Translations under genes and position numbers: made by a program | Sequence record: NC_073061.1 | DNA: 45,251 nucleotides | Strand: one strand, 5' to 3' | Origin: Escherichia phage vB_EcoS-101114BS4 | The notes under the pieces: generated by a model | The model's database searches: none | What the model saw: only the letters and a program-made list of their open reading frames with translations | Told to the model about the DNA's origin: nothing | Shown: positions 5,566-43,318 of the stretch, piece after piece | How the letters are laid out: every line of letters starts with the position of its first letter | How positions within the stretch are numbered: position 1 is the stretch's first letter

Positions 5566-5575
5566 GGAAACGACC

Positions 5576-8484: not shown

Positions 8485-8617
8485 ACCGCCTTGCACCTTT
8501 GAGAATGCATCGGCAGATCCAGACGAAGACTTGCTGGTTGATGTTAAAAATATGGAATGCGGGGCTAAGCTAAGGGCGCAAGTGCTGGAGTTGCAGAAAA
8601 TAATTCGGGGGCCGTGA
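8387..8617 (+). CDS. o-spanin (Rz1-like outer membrane lipoprotein)
   Basis: MLRVLTVLIVVLMLSACGSS signal peptide with lipobox LSAC; starts inside the i-spanin gene in another frame. Confidence 0.65.
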   Translation: MLRVLTVLIVVLMLSACGSSKAPSTPLTESVYRPPCTFENASADPDEDLLVDVKNMECGAKLRAQVLELQKIIRGP

Positions 8618-8630
8618 TGGCCCCTTTTTT
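8607..8630. terminator. Terminator, possibly bidirectional, between convergent genes
   Basis: gggggcc-gtgat-ggcccc hairpin followed by tttttt on + and by a T-rich tract on -. Confidence 0.7.
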
Positions 8631-8635
8631 GTTAA

Positions 8636-9151: not shown

Positions 9152-9205
9152 AATTTCCTCGTGGTTATGTAGACGATAATTCGGGGCCATTACAGCCCCC
9201 TTTTG

Positions 9206-9970: not shown

Positions 9971-9990
9971 TTGTGTTTCCTCATTGTTGG

Positions 9991-10017
9991 TGTGCAACCA
10001 ATATAGTGCAACCAATA
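9991..10017. promoter_or_regulatory. Divergent control region with two direct TGCAACCAAT motifs
   Basis: TGCAACCAAT at 9993-10002 and 10008-10017, between the minus-strand start at 9970 and the scaffold start at 10120. Confidence 0.5.
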
Positions 10018-10119
10018 CCTGTATTGCAAGCGAATTTTGCGATTATTTTTATCGCTGATAATATTAAAGGCGTGAAGTCGAGCGGGTGGCCCGCTCTGCC
10101 ACGATCCCAGGGGGATAGC

Positions 10120-14108: not shown

Positions 14109-14834
14109 ATGGGTTATCAACTTCCTAACGGGTCTAGCGTCCAGATTGGGTCCGTACTGGGCGACGGCATCGCTGTTACGGCAGCTACCAACGCCACCGC
14201 GTCGATCTCTGACCTCGCTACCGGTTGCGTTATTACCTGCGCGGAATCTCATGGTCTGGTTGTTGGTGATGTGGTTATGTTCACTAAAACCCCGTGGGTC
14301 CGTGCGCTAAACCGCGCGTTTATCGTTGGCGCAGTGTCTACCAACGATGTGACGCTGGCGCGCTTCGACTCCTCGGACGTCACCAAATATCCTACCGGTG
14401 CTTTTGCAGTAGGCACTCCGGGTGAAGTGGTGAAGGTGTCGAGCTTTATCGACTTCCCGTTTATCACCAACGTTGCCGTGTCGGGTGGCGACCAGCAGAC
14501 GACTACCTTCCAGCCGTTGCAGGTGAACACCGCGATCAGTCTGAACACCACGAAAAACCCGTTGGTCCAGACGTACACCTTCACCCACGACGAAGAAGAC
14601 CCGATCCGCCCTATCCTGGAAGACCTGGACGATACACAGAAAACCACTGTTATTAAGTTCACGAACCCAGCGGCAGCAAGCGGCAAAGGTGAGATCCGTA
14701 TTTACCCGGCAAAGGTATCTTTCCAGAAGATTCCATCCGCTGAAGTAAACAACGTGGAAACGGTACAATCCACTCTGACCATGCAGTCTGATATGGTTAT
14801 CTACCGTAAGGATCTGGTCGAGGCACTGTCTTGA
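14109..14834 (+). CDS. Major tail (tube) protein
   Basis: 241-aa ORF with AGGAG RBS, followed by a terminator and the chaperone/tape-measure genes. Confidence 0.7.
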   Translation: MGYQLPNGSSVQIGSVLGDGIAVTAATNATASISDLATGCVITCAESHGLVVGDVVMFTKTPWVRALNRAFIVGAVSTNDVTLARFDSSDVTKYPTGAFAVGTPGEVVKVSSFIDFPFITNVAVSGGDQQTTTFQPLQVNTAISLNTTKNPLVQTYTFTHDEEDPIRPILEDLDDTQKTTVIKFTNPAAASGKGEIRIYPAKVSFQKIPSAEVNNVETVQSTLTMQSDMVIYRKDLVEALS

Positions 14835-14864: not shown

Positions 14865-14887
14865 GGGGCCAGCACGGCCCCTTTTTT
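14865..14887 (+). terminator. Rho-independent terminator
   Basis: ggggcc-agcac-ggcccc hairpin followed by tttttt. Confidence 0.7.
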
Positions 14888-15580: not shown

Positions 15581-15583
15581 TGA

Positions 15584-15750
15584 AGCGGGACAAGCGGGAC
15601 GTCCCGATCTGTCCCGTTTTGCCCCGCCCCCTGTAAAACTGCATATCTACTCACTTTCATTGCATAAACTCAAAGCGGGACAAGCGGGACGTCCCGATCT
15701 GTCCCGCCCCCTAAATATGCATACCTATTCAGATTTCGTGCATAAAACAA
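15584..15750. repeat. Two tandem units of about 90 bp, each with GCGGGACAAGCGGGAC, the palindrome CGGGACGTCCCG and TGCATA motifs
   Basis: aagcgggacaagcgggacgtcccgatctgtcccg occurs at 15584 and 15674; palindromes at 15595-15606 and 15685-15696. Confidence 0.85.
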
Positions 15751-15907
15751 ACGGGACAGAAAGCGGGACAAACAAGGGGCGGGACAAAGCGGGACAGCAC
15801 CCCGTCCCCGTCAGTGCTGCCGCGGGTTTCAGCCGATCGGGACAGGCGGGACAACTCCCAGTCTTTCAGACTAGACGGGGGTCAATGGCCCCCCTCGTCT
15901 GAGACTG
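15750..15907. repeat. Copy A of a duplicated iteron-plus-hairpin element (copy B at 43319..43527)
   Basis: Four to six GCGGGACA direct repeats followed by the imperfect long hairpin cagtctttcagactagacgggggtcaatggcccccctcgtctgagactg (15859-15907). Confidence 0.85.
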
Positions 15908-18658: not shown

Positions 18659-19258
18659 ATGGCACAAGGTACAATCACACTAACGAACGGAAGTAAGACC
18701 GTCACGGGCGCGGGGGCGGCGTTCCTGAGCGAGATCGGGAAGGTCCGCGTATTTGCCCGCATCGACGGCAACGACTACACCGGCAAAATTGCAGCATTCA
18801 ACTCTGATACAGTCATCACCCTGGTGGATAACTGGGCCGGTCCGACAAAAGCCGGTGCAGCCTACGAGCTAATCGAAGCGCACGACCCGCGATCAAACGA
18901 ATGGCCCTATTACTGGCACATGCAATTGCAAGGTGGCGGCGACGTGCAGTTGGCTTTCCGGTCGGAGGAATTGCAATTCGGCAATGGCTACGGGCAGAAC
19001 ATCGCGGATGGCCCGAACGCCGAGACGAAACAGTTCCCCGTGCAATTCATCGGACTGACTACTGACAAGTGGTGCGACCCTAAACTGGTGTACAACTTCC
19101 TTCGCGGGCATTTCGTCAAGCCGTTTGTAGTCACCGCGCCTGATGGTGAAACAGGTTTATTCGTGGTCGAGCGTTCGAGCTTGTCGTACACTGACAACGG
19201 ACACTACACGGCAACGGTATCCGCCACCCTTAAGACTGCTATTGGATTTGTAAGATGA
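18659..19258 (+). CDS. Minor tail protein (lambda M position)
   Basis: 199-aa ORF directly after the tape measure gene; N-terminus MAQGTITLTNGSKTVTGAGAAF resembles the N-terminus of the fibre gene at 26136. Confidence 0.6.
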   Translation: MAQGTITLTNGSKTVTGAGAAFLSEIGKVRVFARIDGNDYTGKIAAFNSDTVITLVDNWAGPTKAGAAYELIEAHDPRSNEWPYYWHMQLQGGGDVQLAFRSEELQFGNGYGQNIADGPNAETKQFPVQFIGLTTDKWCDPKLVYNFLRGHFVKPFVVTAPDGETGLFVVERSSLSYTDNGHYTATVSATLKTAIGFVR

Positions 19259-20043
19259 ATAAACTCTATCGTGAGGCGACGCGCTTTGACCCATCGGGCC
19301 GCGTTCGCCTGATTCACATTGATGCGCAGGACGTGGAGCCGGGCGACGGCGCGATCGGCGCGGGCCACCATTATTTCCATTACTGCTTTATTCCGCACAC
19401 TGCCGAAGATATTGCTGCCGCTGGGGGTGACGAGGGCAAGCTAAAGCCAAAATCTATCTTCTTCGGCGGGCAGGAGTTCGAATTTTGGCCCTTCGATTTG
19501 TCTGGCCTCAACTTCTCCACATCAACGGCAGCAGAACCGCAGCTAACCATCGTCGATATTGGCGGGATTATCACCCGGCTGTCACTGAATCACGACCAGC
19601 TACTGGGCGCGAAGGTTGAAATCATCGACACGTTTGCGAAGTTCCTGGACAACGGGCCGGATCCAGACCCGACTCAGAAACGTGTCCAGGAGTTTTACAT
19701 CGACTCACAGGTCGGTCGCAATCCGGGCAAACAAATCACCTTCGCATTATCCTCACCCGCGGATATGGAGGGGCAAGTCGTCCCGCGCCGCCAAATCATG
19801 AATATGTGCGAATGGGCGCTCAACGGGAAGTATGCCAGCGGGGACGGGTGCACGTGGAACCTTGCACAACCAGGCATCAAGTATTATGACGAACGCGGTA
19901 ATGAAGTCATCGCGATGGAGATGGACCGGTGCGGCGGCTGTTTGTCCGACTGTTATCTTCGATTCGGACAAGGGCTTGCAGATCCGAAAGCGGCGGTACT
20001 GGATTACGGCGGCTTTCCGGGGTCCAGATTAATTAAGGGGTAG
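19255..20043 (+). CDS. Minor tail protein L-like
   Basis: 262 aa; C-terminal cysteine cluster (CEWALNG...DGCTWN...MDRCGGCLSDC) as in lambda gpL; synteny M-L-K-I-J. Confidence 0.65.
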   Translation: MNKLYREATRFDPSGRVRLIHIDAQDVEPGDGAIGAGHHYFHYCFIPHTAEDIAAAGGDEGKLKPKSIFFGGQEFEFWPFDLSGLNFSTSTAAEPQLTIVDIGGIITRLSLNHDQLLGAKVEIIDTFAKFLDNGPDPDPTQKRVQEFYIDSQVGRNPGKQITFALSSPADMEGQVVPRRQIMNMCEWALNGKYASGDGCTWNLAQPGIKYYDERGNEVIAMEMDRCGGCLSDCYLRFGQGLADPKAAVLDYGGFPGSRLIKG

Positions 20044-20045
20044 TC

Positions 20046-20786
20046 ATGTTAACGAAAAAGGTTAAGAGCGATATCGCCGCACACGTTGCGGCATGTCTGC
20101 CGGAAGAAGCGTGTGGCCTGGTTGTCATGGTGGGTCGTAAGCAAGTATTCATCCCGTGCCTGAACGTATTCGAAGACCCTACCGGCGCGCGCTCGCGTAA
20201 GGACGCGTTTACAATTAGTGATATGGCATGGATGGACGCCGAGGATATTGGTGACGTCGTGCGCGTAGTCCACTCACATCCAGGCCAGCGGGAGTTAACC
20301 CCGTCATTGGGCGACGTTAACGGATGCAACGGCAGCGGCATTGTGTGGACCATCGCCAATGAGTATGGCGACTTTATCGAGATCGACCCGGAAGACCCGC
20401 CGCTGGTAGGTCGCCGATTTGTTCTCGGAATTACGGATTGCTATGGCCTCGTCATGGACTGGCACAAAAAACAGGGCGTGATTCTGCCTGACTTCCGCGT
20501 GCCGTATAACTGGTGGGAAATGGGCGAAAGCCTGTACATGGATAACTGGTATGATGCGGGATTCAGGGAGTGCGAGGAGAATACACCGGGGGCAATGGTC
20601 ATCATGCAGATTAGCGCGCCAGTGCCTAACCATGCTGGGATCTTCCTTCCGGGCAACCAACTACTACACCATATCTACGGCAGCTTGTCGAGCGTGGTCC
20701 CCTTCCGGGCAGGATTTTTCCGCGACAATGTGGTTAAATGGGTGCGTCATAAAGACTTACCTGGGGATATTACAGAATGGCAATGA
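20046..20786 (+). CDS. Tail tip assembly protein K-like (MPN/JAMM plus NlpC/P60-like)
   Basis: VVRVVHSHPGQRELTPSLGD (JAMM-type HSHP motif) and a downstream Cys/His region; 246 aa; synteny. Confidence 0.75.
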   Translation: MLTKKVKSDIAAHVAACLPEEACGLVVMVGRKQVFIPCLNVFEDPTGARSRKDAFTISDMAWMDAEDIGDVVRVVHSHPGQRELTPSLGDVNGCNGSGIVWTIANEYGDFIEIDPEDPPLVGRRFVLGITDCYGLVMDWHKKQGVILPDFRVPYNWWEMGESLYMDNWYDAGFRECEENTPGAMVIMQISAPVPNHAGIFLPGNQLLHHIYGSLSSVVPFRAGFFRDNVVKWVRHKDLPGDITEWQ

Positions 20787-21394
20787 CCACATTTAAATTG
20801 TACGGCGTCTTAGGACGTCGTTTTGGTAAAGTGCATAAGCTGGACTGTTTCACACCTGGCGAGGGTATCACCGGCCTATGCGTGAAGTTACCAGGCTTAC
20901 AGGACTTTCTAATGTCGGCCCACCTGAACAGCATGATGTTCAAGGTGCGCAAGGGCAAGCACACAATGACCAGCTACGACGAGTTGGGCGAGTTCCACGG
21001 CGACCGCGTAGTTACCATCGCGCCAGTCATGACTGGTGCTAAAAGCGGACTTGGACAATTGCTGGCGGGCGTAGCTATCGTGGTGGCGTCGTTCTATACC
21101 GGTGGGCTTGCCGCTGCCGCTTTCGGTGCTTCCGCTGCGACCGCTGCCGCTATTGGAACGGCGACGTTTTCGTTCGGTATGTCGCTTGCGCTGGGCGGCG
21201 CTATGCAATTGCTGTCACCGCAGCCGAAAGGATTGCAGACACGGCAGGACGTGGATAACAAGGCGTCGTATGCGTTTGGCGGGCCTGTAAACACGACCGC
21301 GCAAGGTACGGCACTTGGTGTATTATGGGGCGAGCGTGAGATCGGCGGCGCTATTATTTCAGCCGGAATTGTAACCGAGGATTTGAACGAATGA
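20777..21394 (+). CDS. Tail assembly protein I-like
   Basis: 205-aa ORF with Gly/Ala-rich hydrophobic C-terminal half, between the K-like and J-like genes. Confidence 0.6.
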   Translation: MAMTTFKLYGVLGRRFGKVHKLDCFTPGEGITGLCVKLPGLQDFLMSAHLNSMMFKVRKGKHTMTSYDELGEFHGDRVVTIAPVMTGAKSGLGQLLAGVAIVVASFYTGGLAAAAFGASAATAAAIGTATFSFGMSLALGGAMQLLSPQPKGLQTRQDVDNKASYAFGGPVNTTAQGTALGVLWGEREIGGAIISAGIVTEDLNE

Positions 21395-24300
21395 CGATTG
21401 TATACGACGTCACGGGTCATAAAGGCGGCGGTGGCAAACAGCACACCCCACAGGAGACGCCTGATAGCCTGCATTCGCTGGCTAAAATCCGCATCTTGCT
21501 CGCACTGGGCGAGGGCGAATTTGAAGGCATTCCCGACCCTAACGAATTACGGCAGCGTGTATACCTGGACGGCACACCGATCCAGAACGCCGACCTGTCG
21601 GATAACTTCCCCGGCGCGCGTGTGGAGTTCCGCCCCGGCACGCAGCACCAGGATGTGATTCACGGTTTTTCAGCGGTGGAAAGCGAGCAAACAGTAGGCG
21701 TAAAACTGGAGAACGGCGCGCCGTGGGTGCGCCAGATTTCGGACACCAGTTTGGACGCCGTGCGCATTCGAATCGGTATTCCGGCCCTGTACACCAACGA
21801 AGATAATGGCGACCTGGTGGGCGGGCGCATCGACTATAAAATCGTTGTGTATACCGACAATGCTGATCCGCGGGAGTTTACATTCGCTGCCGTTGGTAAA
21901 ACAATGTCGCTGTATGAGCGCGATCACCGAATCGAATTACCGCCGAACGTTAACACCGGCTGGCGCGTGGAGGTGCACCGCACAACGGCAGACTCCACAT
22001 CGGCAAAAGTGGTCAACGATATTCAGGTACAATCCATTACTGAGATTATCGACGCCCGCCTGCGATACCCGCTAACCGCGCTGTTGTTCGTGGAGTTCGA
22101 TGCTAAGGCGTTCCAGAACATCCCGCGTGTGTCCATCAAGTGCAAAGGCCGCAAAGTGCTGGTGCCGAACAACTACGACCCGATTAATCATACCTATTCT
22201 GGTGACTGGGACGGCACATTTAAACGCGCCTGGACGGATAACCCTGCGTGGCACTGGTACGATATTTGTATTACTGAGCGCTTCGGCCTCGGTCGTCGTG
22301 TCAAGCCACAAATGCTAAACCGTTACGCACTCTACCAGATTTCGCAGCGCTGCGATCAGATGGTCAGTGACGGCAACGGCGGTCAGGAAATCCGATTTAA
22401 GAATGATATGTACATTCAGTCGCAGACCGACGCCTGGACCGTGCTGAAGGATTTAGCGGCTATCTTTGCGGGCATGACCTGGTGGGGCAACCAGATGTTG
22501 AATATCGTCAGTGACCAGCCTGTCGCAGCGGTATCGCATACTATCACCAACGCCTCGGTCATTGATGGTCGATTCGACTACGCATCGGGAAGCCAGAAAA
22601 CTCGGTATTCCACGTTCTCGGTAGCCTACGGCAACCCGAAGAACCACTATGATGACGCCATCGCAACGGGTCAACGTGTCGAACTGGTGCGCCGCCATAA
22701 GATTAACCGCCTTGATATCACGGCGATCGGCTGTACGCGAGAATCTGAAGCGCAACGCCGCGGGCACTGGGCGCTAATCTCCAACCAGCTTGACCAGCAA
22801 GTCAGCTTTAAGGTTGGCATGGAGGGGTTATTCTTTATTCCGGGGAGCGTAGTCGCGATCGCAGATACTAACATTTCTGGCGGCTTCGAGACACGCGGCG
22901 GACGCCTGTTGTCAGATCCAGGCACGCGCACCGTGCTGAACACGGACAGCGAAATCACGTTCCGCCCTGGTGATAAATTCCTGGTGCGCACCGATAGCGG
23001 TAATGTGGAGACTCGCGAGATTGCCAGCGTCAACGGCAACCAGGTCACGCTAAAAACCGCACTGGACTCCGACCCGATTCCCGATCAGCCGTTTTGCGTT
23101 GATGGCGATGATATCCAGTTGCAGAAGTTCCGCATCACAGACCTGGAATATGACGACGCTACCAGCACTTTTTCGGTGCGCGGGATTGAGTACAACGATA
23201 GCAAATATGATGCCGTTGATAATGGCGCGCGTCTTGATCCGGGTATCTTCACTCAAGTGCCGGACGGCGTGATGAAGGGGCCAGAATCCGTTACTATCAC
23301 CCCGTCGCAGATTTCATCGCAAGGCCAGCTAATCACCAACGTAGATATTGTTTTTCCGCCGGTGAAGGATGCCGTTGTGTACGAAATCCAGTGGCGACGT
23401 ACCAGCTTGCAGAATCTGGAAGTACAGTGGGGCAACGACTGGGTTAACATCCCCCGCACGGCGTCGAACGGCGCGCACATCCCGAACGTGTTTTCTGGTA
23501 ACTACCAGGCACGCGTCCGCGCTATCGGTATGGGCGAGATTTCAGCCCCGTGGGTGTCATCCGAAATCACGCCGGTCGAGGGCCGTCTTGGCGGGCTAAA
23601 CGCGCCAATCATTACCAACGCGATTTCGGGCCTTCATCAAATTTTGTGGAAGTGGAATCACAACAACGCCGCGACGGATATTTCGTATACCGAGCTTGAA
23701 GTGCGCAAGCTGGGTGAGACTGAATGGAAATTCTTGACCAACGTCCCATATCCGGGGTCAGACTATGCGCAAACGTCGCTGGAATTCGGGATCTACCAGC
23801 AGTTGCGCGCACGCGTAGCGGATAAAATCGGCAACCTGTCGGACTGGTCAGACCCGTTTGACGGTCAGGTGAGTGACAAAGTTGACGAGTACATGCAGGG
23901 GCTTGATGACGAGTTCTTGACTTCCGAGGACGGTAAACACTTCCAGGAAGCAATCGACACCATTCCACAAGGCATTTACGAGGCCATGCTCACCGACGCG
24001 CAGCAGTTGTTTAACGCCCGCTCCGAGTATCAAGGGATTTATGCGGAAATCAAGGTGGCGTACAACGTTGCGGTGGACGCAAACGAGGCCGTAGCGCAAC
24101 TGGAAACGCTGATCGGCACGCGCCTTGACGATGCGGAAGCGTCAATCCACACGTTGCAGACTGCGCAAAGCACGCACGAACAAGCGTTCGCCCAGTATCA
24201 ACAAACTGTTGCCGCTAAGTTCGGGGAACAGGAAGCTGCCATCCAGCAGGTACAAACGGCAACGGCAGACGTAGCGGGCGCGCTGGCTGAGTATAAGACC

Positions 24301-24837
24301 CAGGTAGCGGCACAGTTCGGTCAGCAGTCCGCAGCGATCGAGCAGAAGATGACGTCTTCGTTTAACCATGCTGGCGGTAGCGCCACCTACAGCCTTAAAG
24401 CTGGCGTGACGTATAACGGGGCTTACTATGATGCCGGTATGCAGCTTTCCGTTGTGGCGGAAGGTGGCGCGGTTAAATCTCGCATCGCGTTCAAGGCGGA
24501 CCAGTTCTACATCATGCACCCGTCGAATGGGTCGCTTTCGTCCGCGTTTATCGTCGACGGCGGTCAGGTGTACATTGACACGGCGCGCATCAAGAATGCG
24601 TCCATCAACTTCGCACAGATCACGGACACGCTGCAATCCAATAACTGGAATCCGGGTAACAGCGGCTGGCGAATCGCGAAGGATGGCGGGGCGGAGTTCA
24701 ACAACGTAACGGTACGCGGCAACTTGTTCGCGACTACGGGTAATTTCGGATTCTCCGGCGGGTCCGTTACGATCGACGCAACGGGCGTCAACGTGCCATT
24801 ACCTGGAGGGGGAAGGGTTAAAGTCGGGACGTGGTAA
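21391..24837 (+). CDS. Central tail fibre / host specificity protein J-like
   Basis: 1148-aa ORF at the J position of a lambda-like tail tip module. Confidence 0.8.
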   Translation: MTIVYDVTGHKGGGGKQHTPQETPDSLHSLAKIRILLALGEGEFEGIPDPNELRQRVYLDGTPIQNADLSDNFPGARVEFRPGTQHQDVIHGFSAVESEQTVGVKLENGAPWVRQISDTSLDAVRIRIGIPALYTNEDNGDLVGGRIDYKIVVYTDNADPREFTFAAVGKTMSLYERDHRIELPPNVNTGWRVEVHRTTADSTSAKVVNDIQVQSITEIIDARLRYPLTALLFVEFDAKAFQNIPRVSIKCKGRKVLVPNNYDPINHTYSGDWDGTFKRAWTDNPAWHWYDICITERFGLGRRVKPQMLNRYALYQISQRCDQMVSDGNGGQEIRFKNDMYIQSQTDAWTVLKDLAAIFAGMTWWGNQMLNIVSDQPVAAVSHTITNASVIDGRFDYASGSQKTRYSTFSVAYGNPKNHYDDAIATGQRVELVRRHKINRLDITAIGCTRESEAQRRGHWALISNQLDQQVSFKVGMEGLFFIPGSVVAIADTNISGGFETRGGRLLSDPGTRTVLNTDSEITFRPGDKFLVRTDSGNVETREIASVNGNQVTLKTALDSDPIPDQPFCVDGDDIQLQKFRITDLEYDDATSTFSVRGIEYNDSKYDAVDNGARLDPGIFTQVPDGVMKGPESVTITPSQISSQGQLITNVDIVFPPVKDAVVYEIQWRRTSLQNLEVQWGNDWVNIPRTASNGAHIPNVFSGNYQARVRAIGMGEISAPWVSSEITPVEGRLGGLNAPIITNAISGLHQILWKWNHNNAATDISYTELEVRKLGETEWKFLTNVPYPGSDYAQTSLEFGIYQQLRARVADKIGNLSDWSDPFDGQVSDKVDEYMQGLDDEFLTSEDGKHFQEAIDTIPQGIYEAMLTDAQQLFNARSEYQGIYAEIKVAYNVAVDANEAVAQLETLIGTRLDDAEASIHTLQTAQSTHEQAFAQYQQTVAAKFGEQEAAIQQVQTATADVAGALAEYKTQVAAQFGQQSAAIEQKMTSSFNHAGGSATYSLKAGVTYNGAYYDAGMQLSVVAEGGAVKSRIAFKADQFYIMHPSNGSLSSAFIVDGGQVYIDTARIKNASINFAQITDTLQSNNWNPGNSGWRIAKDGGAEFNNVTVRGNLFATTGNFGFSGGSVTIDATGVNVPLPGGGRVKVGTW

Positions 24838-24844
24838 ATGAGAA

Positions 24845-24866
24845 GGGGCCATCCGGCCCCTTTTTT
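24845..24866. terminator. Terminator (bidirectional) between convergent J-like and RBP-like genes
   Basis: ggggcc-atcc-ggcccc hairpin followed by tttttt; nearly identical sequence recurs at 27669..27690. Confidence 0.75.
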
Positions 24867-25830
24867 AATACATGTTAGGTATGACGAGTAACGGGGTTGG
24901 GACGGCTATGTTGCGGTTAGGCATCTGGAATTGCTGCCGTGAGTAGTTACCGATTACGCGATTACGCGCCGCACTAACCACGTTGCCCGCCATGCGTATC
25001 CCGTTCATTCGAACGTGGTTGTAGCCGCTGTTGTTCTCAATGAGCGCGCCGGTATATGAAAGCTGTACGAGGCTATTACCGATATTCTGACCGCCGGTGC
25101 CGATATTAATTACCGAATTGAGCACAAACGGCTTGTTAACGGTCGAGAACGTGACCTGCCCCTGGTTGTTCGTCATGGTGATACCAGTCCCCGGTGATGG
25201 AGGCGTATTGTTGAAGATAACCAGATCCAAGTCCACTTCGGCCCCGACGTCATCAATCCCGCCATAAGACGAATTGCGGACGATGATACTACTACCATCG
25301 AAGCCTACCGATACGTTGCCATTATCCCAGCGCGCGAACGGGATACCGCCCACAGGCAAAGGCATACTACCGTTCACGTGCACGCGCTGCGCGTAGCGGC
25401 AGGTCATTAACCGGGACACGTTGGAAATCGCGGTGAAGTCTGTCGAGTTCGCCACCAGTAAGCCCGCATTGCGTGACCCCACCGGCAGCACTTCCATAAT
25501 TATACCAGCCCATTGCGGGAGGCCGCTGTATGCGTTATGCGCGTCCGCGCCTCGAAGGATAATTCCACTATCCCCGTTGCGCTGTACCGACGTCACGTAG
25601 AACGGGTCGGGGAGAACCAGCGTCTGGTCGAACACCTCAAGCACTTCTACCGGGCGCGTGAGTGCAACGACAAGGTCCGACCCTGGTGTTAGCGGGGTAT
25701 TAATGGTCAGCGTCTTGTCGGACTGGCAGCGCTGATCAAACGTAGTGCAGTATGACGGAGCGCGCAAACCGGCAGTTATCTCCATAATCGGTCGTCCGTC
25801 GTTGTAGTCGATGAGTATTCCAGCGCCCAT
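24865..25830 (-). CDS. Putative receptor-binding protein (tail tip RBP)
   Basis: 321-aa Asn/Gly/Ser/Thr-rich protein antisense to and directly downstream of the J-like gene; start at MGAGILIDY with GGAG RBS; function inferred from position and composition only. Confidence 0.4.
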   Translation of the reverse strand: MGAGILIDYNDGRPIMEITAGLRAPSYCTTFDQRCQSDKTLTINTPLTPGSDLVVALTRPVEVLEVFDQTLVLPDPFYVTSVQRNGDSGIILRGADAHNAYSGLPQWAGIIMEVLPVGSRNAGLLVANSTDFTAISNVSRLMTCRYAQRVHVNGSMPLPVGGIPFARWDNGNVSVGFDGSSIIVRNSSYGGIDDVGAEVDLDLVIFNNTPPSPGTGITMTNNQGQVTFSTVNKPFVLNSVINIGTGGQNIGNSLVQLSYTGALIENNSGYNHVRMNGIRMAGNVVSAARNRVIGNYSRQQFQMPNRNIAVPTPLLVIPNMY

Positions 25831-25832
25831 TA

Positions 25833-26054
25833 TTACCACTCCCGTGATTTAACAGATACAGTGCCTGAGAAATTGCCGTCGCTATCGGCAGATAGGCCCG
25901 TGAAGCGCATGTCCACGTCCCCGGCAGGGACTTTTTGCCCGTCAACGTAGCGTAACATGCAGCTACCGTAAGCAACCGTAATGCAATCGCCGTTGTTGCG
26001 TTCTACAGCACAACCGGACAAAAGGACCGCACAAATCATAATTAAAGTTTTCAT
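25833..26054 (-). CDS. Small lipoprotein, candidate superinfection-exclusion protein (Cor/Llp-like by context)
   Basis: MKTLIMICAVLLSGCAV signal peptide with lipobox LSGC; 73 aa; immediately upstream of and overlapping the RBP-like gene. Confidence 0.55.
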   Translation of the reverse strand: MKTLIMICAVLLSGCAVERNNGDCITVAYGSCMLRYVDGQKVPAGDVDMRFTGLSADSDGNFSGTVSVKSREW

Positions 26055-26135
26055 GTTATCATCTCCTATATTTGGTTGAGTTTTAGTATTGCACCGCTCA
26101 ATCAAGAATGCAACCAATTTTAAGAGGATTCAGCT
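26055..26135. promoter_or_regulatory. Divergent control region between the lipoprotein and lateral fibre genes, with a TGCAACCAAT motif
   Basis: GCAACCAA at 26110-26117 and a degenerate copy (ttggttga) at 26073; 18 bp upstream of the ATG at 26136. Confidence 0.45.
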
Positions 26136-27662
26136 ATGGCAGCGGGTACTATCTTATTAACCAATAACAGCCGGTCGGTAACGGGGACCGGTACGACGTT
26201 TTCGGCGTTCAAAGCCGGTGATTTCCTTTCTGTCGTAGTGGGGCAAGTCCCCTACACTATCGCGGTTGAATCTATCGAAAGCAACACCGGGCTTACTTTG
26301 GTGCTGCCGTTTGACGGCCCAACGGCATCCGGCCTCGCATGGGATGGCGTTGCGCGCGATACCATGTCGCTGGCAACGATGGGCGTAACAGTCCAGGCAC
26401 AGAAAGCACTGCGTATGCTTATTGCGGACGAGAACAACTGGCGTGCAATCTTCGGCGACGCTGAAGAAATCACAGTTACGTTACCGAACGGCACAGTGAT
26501 GCAGGGTATGTCGTGGGGCTACCTGTCGCAGCTAATGAAGCAGATCGACCCGGTGGAAATGCTCAACCTGCAACAACAAGCCGCCGCATCTGAGGTCGCA
26601 GCGAAAGGATACCGCGACGAGGCCGAAGGCTTCAAGAACGATACTAATACCATCAAGACGCAAACCAACCAGATTAAGACTGATACGCAGGCGATCCACG
26701 ACGCCACCAATACGATCAAGACGCAAACCGACCAGATTAAGACCGATACGCAGGCCATCAAGGACCAGACCAACCAGATTAAGACTGACACTGGCGTTAT
26801 TCGAGATCAGGCCAACACGGCGAAGACTGACGCACAAGCGGCCCGAGATGCAGCGCAGGGATACCGCGACGAAGCCGAAGGCTTCAAAAACTCAATCGAC
26901 CCCACTAAGTTCATGCAGAAGTCGCAGAACCTGGCGGACGTTGCCGACAAGTACGCCGCGCGCAACATTCTGGGGGTGGGCGATGACAGTATCGTTAAAC
27001 ACGCAACATTACGCCTGAACGGTGGCGAATCATTAACATTCAATGAAGTGGAGGCTAACGGCTTAATTCTATCAAACGCCTCGATGGGAATCGACAATTG
27101 GGTAGGCTTCACCATGCATAAATGGTACGCCGACTGGACACGCGCAGGAATTGTGCGTGCGGGTGACACCCACGTGTCAGACTACCGCATCCACGTGTGG
27201 AAGAATGGGGCTACTGAGGCGCTATTCCGCTTCCTGCCGGACGGGCGTCTGATTCAGGGTAACAGCGGCAACCCATCGTCGGCGGAGTTTCAGAAAGCAC
27301 CGCTATCAGACCGGGACGTGAAGAAAGAAATCCAATACACGGACGGCGCGGAAAGTTACAACCGAGTACGGCAATGGCTACCAGCAATGTTTAAGTATAA
27401 GGAGTCGGACGTACAGCGTTACGGCCTTATCGCGCAGGACCTGGCCATGATTGACCCGGAATATGTGCACTTGCTGCCAGGACACGGAATCTACGAGGAC
27501 GTTGTTGTTGGCGTGGACGAGGAAGGGAACGAGATTGTCGAGCAAAAGGAGATCGGATACACCGACGATGTGCTGTCGCTTGACAGTAACGTGCTGTTGA
27601 TGGATCTATGCGCCGCCTTCGTTCACCTGTTGCAGAAAGTAGAAAAGCTGGAAGGTAAGTAA
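26136..27662 (+). CDS. Lateral tail fibre with C-terminal intramolecular chaperone-like domain
   Basis: 508 aa; shaft repeats (TNTIKTQTNQIKTDTQAI); C-terminal segment with SDRDVKKEIQYTD...YGLIAQDL resembles the autoproteolytic chaperone domain of phage fibres and endosialidases. Confidence 0.65.
   Translation: MAAGTILLTNNSRSVTGTGTTFSAFKAGDFLSVVVGQVPYTIAVESIESNTGLTLVLPFDGPTASGLAWDGVARDTMSLATMGVTVQAQKALRMLIADENNWRAIFGDAEEITVTLPNGTVMQGMSWGYLSQLMKQIDPVEMLNLQQQAAASEVAAKGYRDEAEGFKNDTNTIKTQTNQIKTDTQAIHDATNTIKTQTDQIKTDTQAIKDQTNQIKTDTGVIRDQANTAKTDAQAARDAAQGYRDEAEGFKNSIDPTKFMQKSQNLADVADKYAARNILGVGDDSIVKHATLRLNGGESLTFNEVEANGLILSNASMGIDNWVGFTMHKWYADWTRAGIVRAGDTHVSDYRIHVWKNGATEALFRFLPDGRLIQGNSGNPSSAEFQKAPLSDRDVKKEIQYTDGAESYNRVRQWLPAMFKYKESDVQRYGLIAQDLAMIDPEYVHLLPGHGIYEDVVVGVDEEGNEIVEQKEIGYTDDVLSLDSNVLLMDLCAAFVHLLQKVEKLEGK
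26608..26892 (+). repeat. In-frame tandem repeats inside the fibre gene
   Basis: 63-bp unit (accatcaagacgcaaaccaaccagattaagactgatacgcaggcg...) repeated about 2.6 times, flanked by two copies of ggataccgcgacga(g/a)gccgaaggcttcaa. Confidence 0.8.
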
Positions 27663-27668
27663 TGAGAA

Positions 27669-27690
27669 GGGGCCATACGGCCCCTTTTTT
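27669..27690. terminator. Terminator (bidirectional) between the fibre gene and the end of the leftward operon
   Basis: ggggcc-atac-ggcccc hairpin followed by tttttt. Confidence 0.75.
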
Positions 27691-28264
27691 AGTTTGAGTT
27701 TTCCCAGTCCATTTTGCGCCGTACTAACGGGCTTTCGTAATATTCCTTGCCCTCCACTTCCACCAGAGGCCAGTCGTTGACAATCACGTATGGTTCCGCA
27801 ATATCCTCAATCACGCCGTGTGCGCTATGTTGCCCGAACGATACGCCCACCAGGATAACACCGGCAACCCGACGGGTGAGATACTCGCGAGCGCAACGCG
27901 CCTCTACCAGTCCGCGACGGATGCCGCTGGTGGCTTTGACCTCGTAGGTCCAGACGGCATCAATCATGTGCTCACGGAAGTCGGGGCCGGACTTAACCTT
28001 GCGTTTACCGACCATGATAATATCGCCGCGGTCGATAGTATTGGCGCTAAACAGGCCGGTACGCATAAGCAAGCCTTGCGGGATACAACTACGCCCGCCT
28101 GCCTGCCCTTCAAGGTACATGCCAGCAAACATCTCGCCCAGCACACCGACAAGTCGGCTTTGCTTGCACGCGTCAGACTTTAATCGCCACTGGTCAAACT
28201 CGACGCTCGCCAACATTGCCGCTATGTGGAATTGTTTACCGGTTATTTCGTATTCGCCGTACAT
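27689..28264 (-). CDS. Hypothetical protein, possible PD-(D/E)xK-type nuclease
   Basis: 191 aa; segment GPDF...IDAVWTYEVK is compatible with a PD-(D/E)xK core but is weak evidence. Confidence 0.45.
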   Translation of the reverse strand: MYGEYEITGKQFHIAAMLASVEFDQWRLKSDACKQSRLVGVLGEMFAGMYLEGQAGGRSCIPQGLLMRTGLFSANTIDRGDIIMVGKRKVKSGPDFREHMIDAVWTYEVKATSGIRRGLVEARCAREYLTRRVAGVILVGVSFGQHSAHGVIEDIAEPYVIVNDWPLVEVEGKEYYESPLVRRKMDWENSN

Positions 28265-28306
28265 TGTGAAGCCCTCATTGCTGCGGGCCGAAGCCCGCTA
28301 TTAGAA

Positions 28307-28900
28307 TTATTTAAGTGCGCTAGTCACCAGTGTTTTTTCCATATTGCGGAAGTCTTCCGGCGTCATGAGTATTTTGGACCCATCCTCGCCAGTGAGCACT
28401 ACCATAGGCTGGACTTCTTGATCTGCCACACCGAAATTGGCAGCTTTAACCGTCTTTCCGAACGAGGCCACCGTATCCTCGGCAACGCGCATTGCACTGT
28501 TATACGCATTAATCTCGCCATCCAGGCGCACGGACAGGTCCGAAGGCTTGAACGCGCCGCCGGTCTTGATAGGCCAACCTTTGAGGCTGTCGAATTGCGC
28601 TGCCGTTGTATCGATCTGAATCTCGTCATGCACGGTCATGTAAGACTCGCCCAGCAAAGCGGAATACGCAACCAGATCAACAATATTGTCTTCCTGGTGC
28701 TTACGGTGCTGGCGCACCAGCTTCAGGCAGATCAGGAAGGTCCAGGCTTCTTGCTCGGTAAGGTCGCGACCGGTAAGCGCGTTAAACACGGCAGCGATTT
28801 GCTTCGCGCTGCGTTCTTCTTTCGCGTTGTCATAGCCGTTTTCTTTCCCGCGCTGTTCCATAGTGGTGGCGGCGTTCTTGCAGTATTCAAATGCTTTCAT
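28307..28900 (-). CDS. Hypothetical phage protein
   Basis: 197 aa with AAGGAAA RBS; the N-terminal 85 aa resemble a widespread phage family of unknown function (not verified). Confidence 0.55.
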   Translation of the reverse strand: MKAFEYCKNAATTMEQRGKENGYDNAKEERSAKQIAAVFNALTGRDLTEQEAWTFLICLKLVRQHRKHQEDNIVDLVAYSALLGESYMTVHDEIQIDTTAAQFDSLKGWPIKTGGAFKPSDLSVRLDGEINAYNSAMRVAEDTVASFGKTVKAANFGVADQEVQPMVVLTGEDGSKILMTPEDFRNMEKTLVTSALK

Positions 28901-28950
28901 GATGTTTTCCTTTTAGTGGGGGCCGGATTGCCCCGACGCGTTAACTATAG

Positions 28951-28972
28951 TGCAACCAACCTATTGGTTGCA
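28951..28972. promoter_or_regulatory. Perfect palindrome TGCAACCAA-CCTA-TTGGTTGCA (candidate operator)
   Basis: 9-bp inverted arms with a 4-bp spacer, overlapping the stop codon of the HAD gene and 50 bp upstream of the next start. Confidence 0.6.
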
Positions 28973-29431
28973 AGTAAATTTTGCTACGTTTATAGAATAA
29001 ATTTTCGGGACCAGATCGCCGCACGCGCGACGGATGGCTTCGATATTCTTCGGGCAGTCTTCAATGATGACCAGTTCGGACACGTCCGCATAGCACACCA
29101 TTTTGAACACCGCGCACGCCTTAAACTCTGGCGGCGGGGTGTCATCCAGCATGTGGCGCATAAACAACCGGCCCACCGGGAAGATCTCCAGTTGCTCGGC
29201 GGTGGTGTCCCAACATTCGCGCTGCCGGTTTGTCAGATACGCGATCTCGAAGCCTTGCTCTTTGTACATGCGCAACAGCGGCAGCATATCCATGTTAAGG
29301 TCTTCGCGTACGTGTGCTTTGTGCCACTTCGCCCAAAAGGTTGATTTGGTTTTTATGCCGGGCACCAGGTCAGCACGCGCATCACTTGAACCATTAATAA
29401 CGCCATCCAGATCACAAATCAGTAGTTTCAT
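28961..29431 (-). CDS. HAD-superfamily phosphatase, 5'(3')-deoxyribonucleotidase-like
   Basis: N-terminal HAD motif I LICDLDGVI; 156 aa. Confidence 0.55.
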   Translation of the reverse strand: MKLLICDLDGVINGSSDARADLVPGIKTKSTFWAKWHKAHVREDLNMDMLPLLRMYKEQGFEIAYLTNRQRECWDTTAEQLEIFPVGRLFMRHMLDDTPPPEFKACAVFKMVCYADVSELVIIEDCPKNIEAIRRACGDLVPKIYSINVAKFTCNQ

Positions 29432-29652
29432 TTTAAGCTCTCAATAAGGGTGTGTCGGGCGCTTCGCGCAGTAAAGGAGTTGCATACGAAGTGGCAACGT
29501 TTGGTTATGACAAGCCAACCGGTAAGGTCCAGGCCCATGATGGATTCGGGTCGGGATACACGCATCACGCGGTCGCGGCGCGGGTCAATGGAGAAGTCCC
29601 GTTGCATTTGGTCCACTACCGCGGGGTCGCGGTCAACGACTAAGATATTCAT
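29428..29652 (-). CDS. Hypothetical protein
   Basis: 74-aa ORF with GAGAGAG RBS, translationally coupled (ATGA overlap) to the downstream gene. Confidence 0.5.
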   Translation of the reverse strand: MNILVVDRDPAVVDQMQRDFSIDPRRDRVMRVSRPESIMGLDLTGWLVITKRCHFVCNSFTARSARHTLIESLK

Positions 29653-36552: not shown

Positions 36553-37341
36553 TTAACGGCGGCGACGTTTACGTGGTGCTTCGTCTTCGTCGTCGTCGTC
36601 CTCATCTTCGTCATCGCGGGACTTGCGACGCTTGCGAGGTTTTTCGTCTTCCTCGTCTTCGTCATCGTCATCACGACGCTTGGATTTCTTGGACTTGCGC
36701 GGCTTATCATCTTCGTCATCGTCATCACGACGTTTGGACTTCTTAGCCTTGCGCGGTGCTTCATCTTCGTCATCGTCGCCCAGGTCGTCATCGGAACAAG
36801 AAGACCCGCCGCCACCGAAGGAGTCACCATCGTCACGGAAGCGAAGACCCATCAAGCCAGCACCAAGACCTTTACCGTTGGTGTTGTTCCACGCCCAAAT
36901 ATCCAGGGACACGTTGCAATAACAACCGGAATAGATTTCCTGGCCTTCGATCTCGTCGCCGTCGATGGTCAGACCCTGTTCGGTCTGCTTCTCGCCCAGT
37001 GACGTTTGAATGTTAGGCTGTTTGAACGATTTGGCGTTGATGTACAACATGCCTTCGAATTCTTCGGTTACTTCGTCGCGCTCGTCGCCGTCACGAACTG
37101 CGCATTCCTTAGAATCCTGGGCGTAGTGGCGGTCCATCCACTTATCGGCGTTCTTCTCGGATTTCAGCTTATCGGTAAGCACTGCGCGCGCTGCCGCTTC
37201 CACTTTGTCCACCTGCGGATCTTCTTTATCAAGAAGAATCACGGCACGGTATGCCGGTTTTTGTCCATCCTGTTTAGGGGTATCACGTTCCCAAATTTTC
37301 AGGAAGCATACGCGTACATTTTTCAGGTTGACTTTAGCCAT
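36553..37341 (-). CDS. Putative ssDNA-binding protein with a highly charged repetitive C-terminal tail
   Basis: Start MAKVNLKNVRV with GAGGA RBS; position between nuclease and polymerase as in conserved phage replication modules; C-terminal 80 aa are alternating acidic and basic repeats. Confidence 0.45.
   Translation of the reverse strand: MAKVNLKNVRVCFLKIWERDTPKQDGQKPAYRAVILLDKEDPQVDKVEAAARAVLTDKLKSEKNADKWMDRHYAQDSKECAVRDGDERDEVTEEFEGMLYINAKSFKQPNIQTSLGEKQTEQGLTIDGDEIEGQEIYSGCYCNVSLDIWAWNNTNGKGLGAGLMGLRFRDDGDSFGGGGSSCSDDDLGDDDEDEAPRKAKKSKRRDDDDEDDKPRKSKKSKRRDDDDEDEEDEKPRKRRKSRDDEDEDDDDEDEAPRKRRRR
36575..36790 (-). repeat. In-frame tandem repeats encoding the charged tail of the SSB-like protein
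   Basis: About 57-bp unit repeated about three times (...atcttcgtcatcgtcatcacgacg(c/t)ttgga(t/c)ttcttgg...) giving DDDDEDxKPRKxKKSKRR repeats. Confidence 0.75.
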
Positions 37342-39709: not shown

Positions 39710-40228
39710 TTAATCTTCTAATTCGAAATAAGTTTCGACGATTGCTTTTAATTCCTGGTGGAACTCTTCCACGTCGTCATCTTCCAGCTTGGCAACGGAT
39801 TTAATTTCGAATTCTTCCAGCAGGTCGTCAAATTCGTCGTTTGCGTCGTCGTCATCACCGCCAGCAATAATAGCGGCATACTGCTTGATTTCGTCGCGCA
39901 TCTCTTTCAGCGGATCGGCATCTTTCTTGCCTTTACCTTTCGCCGGTGCTTTCTTAGATTTCGCCGGGGCTTCTTCTTCGTCGTCCGCGTCGTCTTCTTC
40001 TACGGCTTCTTTCTTAGCCTTGCCCTTTGCTGGCGCTTTTTTGGTCTTAGCCGGTGCTTCGTCTTCAGCGTCGTCATCTTCGACTACTTCTTCTTTTGCC
40101 TTGCCCTTAGCCGGGGCTTTCTTCGCTTCCTGTTTACCAACGGCAGCGCCAGCAGTTTCATAATGCTTAGCGATGGTTTCCAGTGCTACTACGCCGCGTG
40201 TGATCAGGTTTACGATTTGCTCAAACAT
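39710..40228 (-). CDS. Lys/Ala/Glu-rich repeat protein (histone H1-like composition), first gene of the leftward operon
   Basis: ATG 40228 (MFEQIVNL) with GGAG RBS; repeats EAPAKTKKAPAKGKAKKE; the upstream in-frame ORF extension is treated as 5' leader. Confidence 0.55.
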   Translation of the reverse strand: MFEQIVNLITRGVVALETIAKHYETAGAAVGKQEAKKAPAKGKAKEEVVEDDDAEDEAPAKTKKAPAKGKAKKEAVEEDDADDEEEAPAKSKKAPAKGKGKKDADPLKEMRDEIKQYAAIIAGGDDDDANDEFDDLLEEFEIKSVAKLEDDDVEEFHQELKAIVETYFELED

Positions 40229-43238: not shown

Positions 43239-43318
43239 TTTTTGCGCGCATTGGTTGCCAAATTGAGTGTTTTTAGCTGGTCGCATTGGTTGCCGTGTAG
43301 TGTAAATATAGTGAATAG

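What the first reader, a model, noticed from the sequence alone, without database searches (positions are those of the whole stretch)
24838..27690. Near-identical terminators after the J-like gene and after the fibre gene
aatgagaaggggccatccggcccctttttt (24838-24866) and aatgagaaggggccatacggcccctttttt (27661-27690) differ at one loop base and each follows a fibre gene stop codon. The terminators at 8607 and 14865 are related. Shared boundary sequences could act as recombination linkers for exchanging receptor-recognition modules.
Basis: seen in the sequence. Interest (0 to 1): 0.35.

Follow-up and report, generated by a model that had tools for sequence, protein, structure and literature searches.

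The report
Twin terminators flanking phage host-recognition genes
Two almost identical 30-base hairpin-plus-T-run sequences end the tail-tip gene and the side-fibre gene of an E. coli Dhillonvirus phage; they look like ordinary two-way transcription terminators squeezed between convergent genes, and there is little sign that they act as special recombination sites.

Summary
AATGAGAAGGGGCCAT[C/A]CGGCCCCTTTTTT occurs at 24837-24866 and 27661-27690, with one loop mismatch and none expected by chance. The window is a complete Dhillonvirus genome, 99.3% identical to phage WF5505.

Each copy fills a 26-27 nt gap between convergent stop codons: J-like gene against the LptD-type receptor-binding gene, and lateral fibre gene against the last gene of the leftward gene block. 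Each folds into a GC hairpin with an A-rich 5' side and a T-run. I read them as bidirectional intrinsic terminators. GenBank records of close relatives already annotate them as terminators.

Across about 45 relatives the hairpin is kept, with compensatory stem changes. The same design occurs in at least 113 unrelated viral contigs, so it is a generic design.

The linker idea is only partly supported:
- The fibre terminator is the first conserved sequence after the hypervariable fibre 3' end.
- The J terminator lies inside the swapped receptor module, and other module types carry other hairpins.
- Cross-genus breakpoints fall inside genes.
- The two copies are not closer within genomes than between genomes (p=0.14).

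Side findings: hairpin loops flipped to their reverse complement, and a 576-nt gene insertion at 8.6 kb flanked by a duplicated related terminator.

The parts
21391..24837 (+). J-like central tail fibre / tail-tip gene (1148 aa); last gene of the rightward tail-gene run (18659-24837)
   Evidence: phrog_31 central tail fiber J, E=0; annotated as host specificity protein J in relatives
24837..24866 (+). Copy 1 of the 30-nt repeat, the J/RBP terminator. Extended stem 24840-24850 with 24855-24865; core GGGGCC 24845-24850 and GGCCCC 24855-24860; loop ATCC 24851-24854; T-run 24861-24866. The T-run overlaps the stop codon of the convergent RBP gene (24865-24867). It fills the 27-nt gap between the two stop codons.
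   Evidence: Fold: -23.4 kcal/mol on +, z=-3.9; -16.3 kcal/mol on -, z=-2.5. The same position is annotated as a terminator in phage WFI.
24865..25839 (-). Receptor-binding protein gene, convergent with J. The likely start is at M4, giving 321 aa. It is LptD-type by homology.
   Evidence: 85% aa identity over 321 aa to Oekolampad bas18_0025. The LptD-binding RBP_Oeko of bioRxiv 10.1101/2025.07.07.663478 is assigned to that gene by position, next to the SE gene bas18_0026 (inference). phrog_1265 E=2e-117.
25833..26117 (-). Small lipoprotein ORF, the superinfection-exclusion (Cor/Llp-like) gene. Homologues are annotated as 222 nt, so the real start is probably near 26054.
   Evidence: phrog_4281 E=4.7e-33 and a weak Cor match. 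Annotated as lipoprotein in relatives. The positional counterpart bas18_0026 is called the SE lipoprotein in 10.1101/2025.07.07.663478.
26136..27662 (+). Lateral tail fibre gene (508 aa). The N-terminal part is conserved to about 26530-26980, the end point varying with the relative; the C-terminal part is hypervariable up to the stop codon.
   Evidence: phrog_1980 E=1.6e-117; breakpoints; conservation profile
27661..27690 (+). Copy 2 of the 30-nt repeat, the fibre/gp26-like terminator. Extended stem 27664-27674 with 27679-27689; core 27669-27684; loop ATAC 27675-27678; T-run 27685-27690. The T-run overlaps the stop codon of the convergent gene (27689-27691). It fills the 26-nt gap between the stop codons, at the meeting point of the fibre transcription unit (the last rightward structural gene) and the leftward gene block.
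   Evidence: Fold: -18.7 kcal/mol on +, z=-3.3; -15.7 kcal/mol on -, z=-3.8. Annotated as a terminator in WF5505, WFI, CS16 and mEp515.
27689..28264 (-). gp26-like gene (phrog_10558, function unknown), the last gene of the leftward gene block and convergent with the fibre gene
   Evidence: conserved at 76-97% aa identity in 29 IMG/VR and metagenome loci
8608..8624 (+). Related hairpin GGGGCC-GTGAT-GGCCCC plus T-run, between the rightward spanin genes (names from Oekolampad) and the leftward gene 8636-9190
   Evidence: -17.2 kcal/mol
9184..9200 (+). Degenerate second copy of the 8.6-kb hairpin (GGGGCCATTACAGCCCC). Together with 8586-8634, the stretch 9162-9210 forms a 49-nt imperfect direct repeat flanking the inserted gene 8636-9190 (-).
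   Evidence: family D17; both window copies align to the single hairpin of Oekolampad. Weak fold, z about -0.7.
14865..14881 (+). Related hairpin GGGGCC-AGCAC-GGCCCC plus T-run after the putative tail protein gene (14109-14834), followed by a gene on the same strand. It would act as an attenuator-type terminator.
   Evidence: -14.7 kcal/mol; gene name

Best explanation
Both copies are Rho-independent terminators that work in both directions. Each sits in the 26-27 nt left between two convergent stop codons.

On the + strand RNA, the stem GAGAAGGGGCC/GGCCCCUUUUU and the U-run would stop transcripts leaving the J gene and the fibre gene. On the - strand RNA, the same GC stem followed by UUCUCAUU would stop transcripts leaving the receptor-binding-protein / exclusion-lipoprotein pair and the long leftward gene block. 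This keeps converging transcription units from reading into each other. It also makes the fibre gene a separate unit, with a promoter needed in the divergent gap at about 26055-26135.

The near-identity comes mostly from shared constraints. These are an identical layout (stop codon, A-rich spacer, 6-bp GC core, 4-nt loop, T-run that doubles as the opposite stop codon) and a terminator design that many unrelated phages also use. A common origin of the two copies is possible on top of that.

They mark module edges because they lie at gene ends, not because they are specialised recombination sites.

Shown here: the sequence, the predicted fold, the position, the conservation, the covariation and the breakpoint maps. 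Inferred: termination itself, since no transcript data exist.
For: - Anatomy and position. Predicted hairpins of -15.7 to -23.4 kcal/mol on both strands, z from -2.5 to -3.9.
- On 38 distinct hairpins from relatives, 98.2% of cells are paired, the GC core is invariant, and three outer pairs show compensatory changes (A-U to U-A, A-U to G-C, G-C to A-U). None of 500 shuffles reached the observed score.
- Position is conserved in about 45 Dhillonvirus loci. It is also conserved in a T1-like phage, EF3-1, at only 68% flank identity.
- GenBank records of WFI, WF5505, CS16 and mEp515 annotate the same sites as predicted terminators.
- GAAGGGGCC-N4-GGCCCCTTTT occurs in at least 120 IMG/VR stretches. 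Of these, 113 have no homology to the window, so it is a generic design.
- No Rfam family reaches threshold here.
Against: - There is no transcript-end or in vitro termination evidence for any Dhillonvirus.
- The - strand tail (UUCUCAUU) is an imperfect U-tract, so leftward efficiency is uncertain.
- The simple terminator scan did not list either site. The probable reason is that the A-rich 5' side lets the stem extend into the T-run.
- The loops of both copies (AUCC/AUAC here, AAAC/AAAC in a divergent clade) resemble each other. They differ from the UUCG/GNRA loops that dominate the unrelated examples. Shared function alone does not explain this.
Confidence: 0.8

Rival explanations
1. Recombination linkers. 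The shared 30-nt sequences are short homology anchors at which phages exchange receptor-recognition modules, or at which the whole 2.8-kb cassette between them is exchanged or lost.
For: - The fibre terminator is the first conserved sequence after the hypervariable fibre 3' end in 39 of 43 comparisons (profile).
- Among genomes with the same receptor-module type, mismatch density jumps from about 6-9% in J to about 19-21% in the RBP gene. The best change point is at 24880-24901 in 7 of 13 comparisons, 15-35 nt from the J terminator.
- A related terminator is duplicated at the edges of an inserted gene at 8.6 kb.
- Phage recombinases can use short or diverged homology (PMC2327257, PMC3945230, titles and abstracts).
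Against: - The J terminator lies inside the block replaced in other module types, and those types carry different hairpins.
- Cross-genus junctions are inside genes, at 27626 in SH6 and 27818 in mEp515.
- The 24880-24901 change point falls in the conserved last codons of the RBP gene, which fits a protein-domain boundary.
- Kilobases of flanking homology make a 30-nt anchor unnecessary.
- There is no excess within-genome similarity (p=0.14).
- No deletion junction was found in 166 records.
Confidence: 0.12
2. Paralogous copies. The two terminators descend from one terminator that was duplicated when a gene cassette was inserted at it. Candidates are the fibre unit or the RBP/exclusion pair. 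The similarity would then be a footprint of that event. This is compatible with both copies still working as terminators.
For: - Exactly this pattern is seen at 8.6 kb. Oekolampad has one hairpin where the window has two, and 49 nt of it align to both sides of the extra 576-nt gene. Most of the listed relatives cover about 73% of that query, consistent with lacking the gene.
- The J and fibre loops belong to one unusual set (A-T/A-N-C), unlike the UUCG/GNRA loops of unrelated examples.
- Weak similarity extends upstream of the repeat: 73% over 67 nt (family D8).
Against: - No relative has the single-terminator ancestral state.
- The J-type terminator travels with the LptD-type receptor module into a T1-like phage, EF3-1, whose fibre terminator is different.
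- The upstream similarity lies in unrelated coding sequence and may be purine-richness plus extension bias.
Confidence: 0.25
3. Concerted evolution. Gene conversion between the two copies inside one genome keeps them alike.
For: - In the divergent clade (L012/L028, LM40P1/Ioannina) both copies carry loop AAAC or its inverse GTTT. In L012 the two copies share 26 identical nt.
- A loop-only permutation test gives p=0.00045.
Against: - The loop result rests on one clade, so effectively on one event.
- Loop AAAC also occurs in a main-clade fibre terminator, CS16.
- Over all 19 variable positions the test gives p=0.14.
- Within-genome distances range from 1 to 10.
Confidence: 0.1
4. Not terminators at all, but another kind of repeated palindrome, such as a protein-binding site, a REP-like element or a nuclease target.
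For: The only hint is a sub-threshold Rfam match to an sRNA model (STnc50, 29.8 bits against a gathering score of 55). The match overlaps the J terminator on the - strand, so the hairpin may be driving it.
Against: The sites lie directly after stop codons, carry a T-run, sit only at gene ends and show stem covariation. Many unrelated phages use the same design at what look like gene ends.
Confidence: 0.03

Closest known systems
Predicted terminators annotated in GenBank records of the closest Dhillonviruses (vB_EcoS_WFI MK373791, vB_EcoS_WF5505 MK373790)
   Same: Same positions and nearly the same sequence. WFI annotates both sites: after J, -13.9 kcal/mol, + strand; after the fibre gene, -13.5 kcal/mol, - strand. 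WF5505 is 99.3% identical to the window and annotates the fibre site.
   Different: WF5505 does not annotate the J site. The records do not note the near-identity of the pair or the two-way geometry.
Bidirectional intrinsic terminators between convergent genes in E. coli (own knowledge: Ju et al. 2019 Nat Microbiol; see also bioRxiv 10.1101/2022.10.23.513370)
   Same: A GC hairpin with an A-rich 5' flank and a T-rich 3' flank, shared by two convergent genes.
   Different: Here the element is compressed into 26-27 nt, and the T-run overlaps the opposite stop codon. Activity is untested.
Linker or boundary sequences of the modular theory of phage evolution (own knowledge: Botstein 1980; Clark et al. 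2001 on HK620)
   Same: A short conserved sequence at the edge of an exchangeable module; this holds for the fibre terminator.
   Different: Breakpoints in cross-genus exchanges and in receptor-module swaps do not fall on the element. Long flanking homology is available.
Receptor-binding-protein loci downstream of gpJ in small siphoviruses (Maffei et al. 2021, PMC8594841; LptD-binding RBP of Oekolampad, bioRxiv 10.1101/2025.07.07.663478)
   Same: The genes between the two terminators are this locus (RBP plus exclusion lipoprotein, LptD type by 85% identity) followed by the lateral fibre gene. The paper infers frequent horizontal transfer of these loci.
   Different: In the passages retrieved, neither paper mentions the flanking terminators or where the exchanged blocks end.
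Morons: inserted genes with their own promoter and terminator (own knowledge: Juhala et al. 2000; Hendrix et al. 2000)
   Same: The 8636-9190 gene is annotated 'possible moron' in SO-1, is variably present and abuts a terminator.
   Different: The insertion is flanked by two copies of the resident terminator rather than by a new one. This applies to the 8.6-kb locus, not demonstrably to the J/fibre pair.

Membership tests
Rho-independent (intrinsic) terminator | GC-rich stem of about 5-14 bp with a short loop | tested here: met
   A 6-bp all-GC core extendable to 11 pairs, with a 4-nt loop; -18.7 and -23.4 kcal/mol in 51-nt windows, z -3.3 and -3.9
Rho-independent (intrinsic) terminator | A run of T (U) directly after the stem | tested here: met
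   TTTTTT at 24861-24866 and 27685-27690
Rho-independent (intrinsic) terminator | Located just downstream of a stop codon, at the end of a transcription unit | tested here: met
   The extended stem starts 2 nt after the J stop codon and 1 nt after the fibre stop codon. The next gene on each side is on the opposite strand.
Rho-independent (intrinsic) terminator | The stem is maintained in evolution, with compensatory changes | tested here: met
   98.2% of cells paired; three pairs changed on both sides; 0 of 500 shuffles reach the score; slid controls are lower. The core pairs never vary, so they are uninformative.
Rho-independent (intrinsic) terminator | RNA polymerase actually terminates there | not testable with these tools
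   No transcript-end data. The two Dhillonvirus literature searches were not aimed at transcript data and turned up none.
Bidirectional terminator | Lies between convergent genes, with the hairpin shared by both | tested here: met
   Gaps of 27 nt (24838-24864) and 26 nt (27663-27688) between convergent stop codons, almost wholly occupied by the hairpin
Bidirectional terminator | A U-rich tract follows the hairpin on the opposite strand too | tested here: inconclusive
   The - strand tail is UUCUCAUU, 5 U in 8 and interrupted. The - strand fold is -15.7 to -16.3 kcal/mol.
Recombination linker at module boundaries | The same sequence is present at the junction in relatives that carry different modules | tested here: inconclusive
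   Met for the fibre copy, which is present whatever the fibre allele. Not met for the J copy: four J/receptor module types carry four different hairpins.
Recombination linker at module boundaries | Exchange breakpoints coincide with the element | tested here: not met
   Receptor-module block 24646/24721 to 26008/26041, with the terminator inside it. SH6 homology ends at 27626. mEp515 homology ends at 27818, past the terminator. The within-type change point is at 24880-24901 or elsewhere.
Recombination linker at module boundaries | Products of recombination between the two copies exist (deletion or exchange of the cassette) | tested here: not met
   A synthetic deletion-junction query gave 0 of 166 records with at least 80% coverage

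The most novel reading that the evidence does not exclude
Terminator hairpins in these phages may be active sites of DNA rearrangement rather than passive gene-end signals.

Three observations point that way:
- At least five reverse-complement loop pairs occur in otherwise conserved or identical hairpins.
- A terminator is duplicated at both edges of an inserted gene at 8.6 kb.
- The J and fibre terminators share unusual loops.

These could all reflect hairpin-mediated template switching or short-homology recombination at terminators. Such a process would insert, duplicate and occasionally swap cassettes, including the whole host-recognition cassette bracketed by the twin terminators.
Probability: 0.12. 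Interest if true: 0.5.

Novelty: already known. Interest (0 to 1): 0.2.

Why it matters
The practical value is modest. The two terminators delimit the complete host-recognition cassette of an LptD-type Dhillonvirus: the receptor-binding protein, the exclusion lipoprotein and the lateral fibre.

The breakpoint map shows where natural exchanges occurred. They fall inside the J 3' end, in the divergent promoter gap, in the middle of the fibre gene and at the fibre stop codon. That map is useful for anyone designing receptor or fibre swaps in small siphoviruses.

The analysis also gives a concrete negative result for the classical linker idea at this locus, and one positive example at 8.6 kb of a terminator duplicated at an insertion junction.

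If the novel reading held, terminators would count as drivers of phage mosaicism. The present evidence does not establish that.

Tried and rejected
- The simple terminator scan did not list either site. I treat this as a scan artefact, because the stem extension consumes the T-run, and not as evidence against the sites. The fold and the annotations of relatives support the hairpins.
- An Rfam search of 24000-28500 at permissive E-value gave only a sub-threshold sRNA match. I rejected it.
- I searched for a natural deletion between the two copies with a synthetic junction query. None was found.
- I tested within-genome homogenisation. The test over all variable positions is not significant (p=0.14). 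The loop-only signal (p=0.00045) depends on one clade, so I did not accept it as evidence.
- I considered that identical stems imply common descent of all four GGGGCC hairpins. I rejected this as unproven, because the same stem, spacer and tail occur in at least 113 unrelated viral contigs.
- I considered whether the 20/37 similarity upstream of the 30-mer (family D8) shows a longer duplication. The two regions encode unrelated C-termini, and the extension procedure biases towards such runs. I left this as weak.
- The paper searches found no study of Dhillonvirus terminators or junctions.
Full report
**What the window is**

The window is a complete phage genome of about 45.1 kb with a 127-nt overlap at its two ends (family D2). 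Region 20700-29500 is 99.3% identical to Escherichia phage vB_EcoS_WF5505, and 159 records match, nearly all Dhillonvirus phages of E. coli.

**The observation**

The 30-mer AATGAGAAGGGGCCATCCGGCCCCTTTTTT lies at 24837-24866. A copy with one mismatch lies at 27661-27690. No match occurred in 100 shuffles. The mismatch is the third loop base.

Copy 1 begins at the last base of the TAA of the J-like gene (21391-24837). Copy 2 begins at the second base of the TAA of the fibre gene (26136-27662).

GGGGCC-N(3-6)-GGCCCC occurs four times, always on the + strand with a T-run: at 8608, 14865, 24845 and 27669. The expected number is 0.01.

**Surroundings**

Downstream of each copy the next gene is on the opposite strand, and its stop codon overlaps the T-run.
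- The ORF at 24865-25839 (-) is 85% identical to Oekolampad bas18_0025. A 2025 preprint shows that the Oekolampad receptor-binding protein (RBP) binds LptDE. I assign that RBP to bas18_0025 by position, because it lies next to bas18_0026, which the preprint names as the exclusion lipoprotein.
- It is followed by the small lipoprotein ORF 25833-26117 (-), the positional counterpart of the Oekolampad exclusion lipoprotein bas18_0026.
- The gene at 27689-28264 (-) is a conserved gene of unknown function. It ends the block of leftward genes.

The two hairpins therefore occupy gaps of 27 and 26 nt between convergent stop codons. Together they bracket the whole host-recognition cassette: RBP, exclusion lipoprotein and lateral fibre. 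[quoted passage not shown]

**Structure**

Both copies fold as an 11-pair hairpin with a 4-nt loop on the + strand RNA (-23.4 and -18.7 kcal/mol; z -3.9 and -3.3). On the - strand they fold as an 8-pair hairpin (-16.3 and -15.7 kcal/mol), followed by UUCUCAUU.

The simple terminator scan missed both. The likely reason is that the A-rich 5' side lets the stem run into the T-tract. No Rfam family reaches its threshold here.

**Conservation**

I collected 16 IMG/VR loci, 13 metagenome loci and about 25 GenBank regions.
- The fibre terminator is present in almost every Dhillonvirus, whatever the fibre C-terminal allele. Its form is GGGGCC, a 4-nt loop, GGCCCC, a T-run and then AGTTTGAG.
- The J terminator of this form is present only in genomes with the same J C-terminus and RBP module.
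- Three other module types have other hairpins: AAAGCCCCGCGAGGGGCTTT, GGGGCTTCGGCCCC and ATAGCCCCTCGCTTGAGGGGCTAT.

On 38 distinct hairpins, 98.2% of cells pair. The GC core never varies. Three outer pairs show compensatory changes, and none of 500 shuffles reached the score.

The same J-type hairpin persists in the T1-like phage EF3-1, although the flanks are only 68% identical.

GenBank records already annotate these sites as predicted terminators: both sites in WFI, and the fibre site in WF5505, CS16 and mEp515.

**Is the near-identity special?**

Among 16 distinct J/fibre combinations, the two copies differ at 1 to 10 of 19 variable positions. The window has the minimum.
- Shuffling fibre terminators among genomes gives p=0.14.
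- Three of 420 cross-genome pairs are equally close.
- A loop-only test is significant (p=0.00045), but it depends on one divergent clade in which both loops are AAAC or GTTT.

GAAGGGGCC-N4-GGCCCCTTTT occurs in at least 120 IMG/VR stretches. Of these, 113 have no homology to the window, and their loops are mostly UUCG or GNRA. The stem, spacer and tail are therefore a generic terminator design. The shared unusual loops of the two Dhillonvirus copies are the only hint of common descent or conversion.

**Junction analysis**

Against 45 distinct relatives:
- The alignment covering the right flank starts at 27656-27668 in 39 of 43 cases. The fibre 3' end is unalignable up to about 10 nt before the stem.
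- The alignment covering the J body ends at 24646 (11 cases) or 24721 (5 cases), or runs straight through the J terminator. Where it breaks, homology resumes at 26008-26041.

So the J terminator is inside the replaced block.

Within the window's module type, mismatch density rises from about 6-9% in J to about 19-21% in the RBP gene. The best change point is at 24880-24901 in 7 of 13 comparisons and at 24724-25183 in the others. That is close to the terminator but inside the conserved last codons of the RBP gene.

Across genera:
- Tunavirus SH6 shares the fibre C-terminal region only up to 27626 and has a different terminator.
- The temperate phage mEp515 carries the fibre 3' end, the same terminator with the same loop, and a 156-nt remnant of the next gene up to 27818. 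There the terminator was a passenger, not the junction.

No record has a junction consistent with recombination between the two copies.

**Conclusion**

The elements are ordinary intrinsic terminators with a two-way layout, already annotated in close relatives. They coincide with module edges because they sit at gene ends.

The linker interpretation is supported only in the weak sense that the fibre copy is the first conserved sequence beside a hypervariable region. The stronger predictions failed.

**Side results**

1. Loops are found in reverse-complement pairs in hairpins of the same kind: ATCC/GGAT, ATCT/AGAT and AAAC/GTTT at the J site, and ATAC/GTAT and GTGC/GCAC at the fibre site. For ATCT/AGAT the stem and flanks are identical. 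This is the pattern expected from inversion or template switching between the stem arms.
2. At 8.6 kb the gene 8636-9190 (-) appears to be absent from most relatives: only 8 of 156 records cover at least 80% of the query, and most listed hits cover about 73%. Oekolampad has one hairpin where the window has two, and 49 nt align to both edges of the insertion. This is a real case of a related terminator duplicated at an insertion junction.

Noticed in passing
24851-24854 and 27675-27678; relatives L017 vs L029, L043 vs L044/L026, L012 vs L048, L004 vs L005, L014 vs L051: Hairpin loops occur as exact reverse complements in otherwise near-identical terminators: ATCT/AGAT, ATCC/GGAT, AAAC/GTTT, ATAC/GTAT and GTGC/GCAC. 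This suggests repeated inversion of the loop between the stem arms, by template switching or intramolecular recombination, rather than point mutation.
   Followed up: partly
8586-8634 and 9162-9210, flanking 8636-9190 (-): A 576-nt gene is flanked by a 49-nt imperfect duplication of the local GGGGCC terminator. It is annotated as DNA pol III beta-like and 'possible moron' in SO-1. Only 8 of 156 records cover at least 80% of the query, and most listed hits cover about 73%, consistent with lacking the gene. Oekolampad has a single hairpin at this place. SO-1 has this gene but lacks the neighbouring gene 9206-10015. The inner copy (9184-9200) is degenerate and folds weakly.
   Followed up: yes
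L054 (mEp515, PP180003) 5001-5852 versus window 26966-27818: A temperate mEp021-like phage carries a Dhillonvirus-type fibre C-terminal region at 77% identity. It also carries the same terminator with loop ATAC and a 156-nt remnant of the gp26-like gene, close to the right end of the genome record. This looks like a cross-lifestyle transfer with an illegitimate right junction.
   Followed up: partly
L047 (vB_Eco_CS16, LR999870) 4936-5481: This Dhillonvirus has a fibre gene reduced to about 517 nt and annotated as a pseudogene. It keeps the last codons and the terminator with loop AAAC, so the lateral fibre may be dispensable, at least in this isolate.
   Followed up: no
1-127 and 45125-45251: A perfect 127-nt repeat lies at the two ends of the window. 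It is an assembly overlap of a circular or permuted genome, or a terminal redundancy.
   Followed up: no
15583-15616 / 15673-15706; 15718-15894 versus 43312-43488; 15640-15668: There are repeats in the gap before the tape-measure gene. A perfect 34-nt direct repeat contains GGGAC motifs. A 177-nt segment is repeated at 81% identity 27.6 kb away, near 43.3 kb. Their function is unknown; a regulatory or origin-like role is one possibility.
   Followed up: no
26598-26891: The fibre gene contains in-frame tandem and dispersed repeats: 63-nt units at 26638-26805 and a 42-nt pair at 26598/26850. They lie near where homology to many relatives ends (26878-26880). They could favour slippage or recombination inside the fibre shaft.
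   Followed up: no
36581-36760 and 39765-40123 (- strand genes): Repeats of 54-81 nt in GAC/GAA-rich sequence, which would encode acidic (Asp/Glu-rich) low-complexity repeats in two leftward genes.
   Followed up: no
10002-10040 and 28946-28984: A 39-nt repeat at 77% identity contains TATAGTGCAACCAA...TTGCAAG...AATTTTGC. At both sites it overlaps - strand promoter-like matches (10029-10000 and 28973-28944). It lies at the upstream end of two leftward gene groups and may be a shared phage promoter or operator.
   Followed up: no
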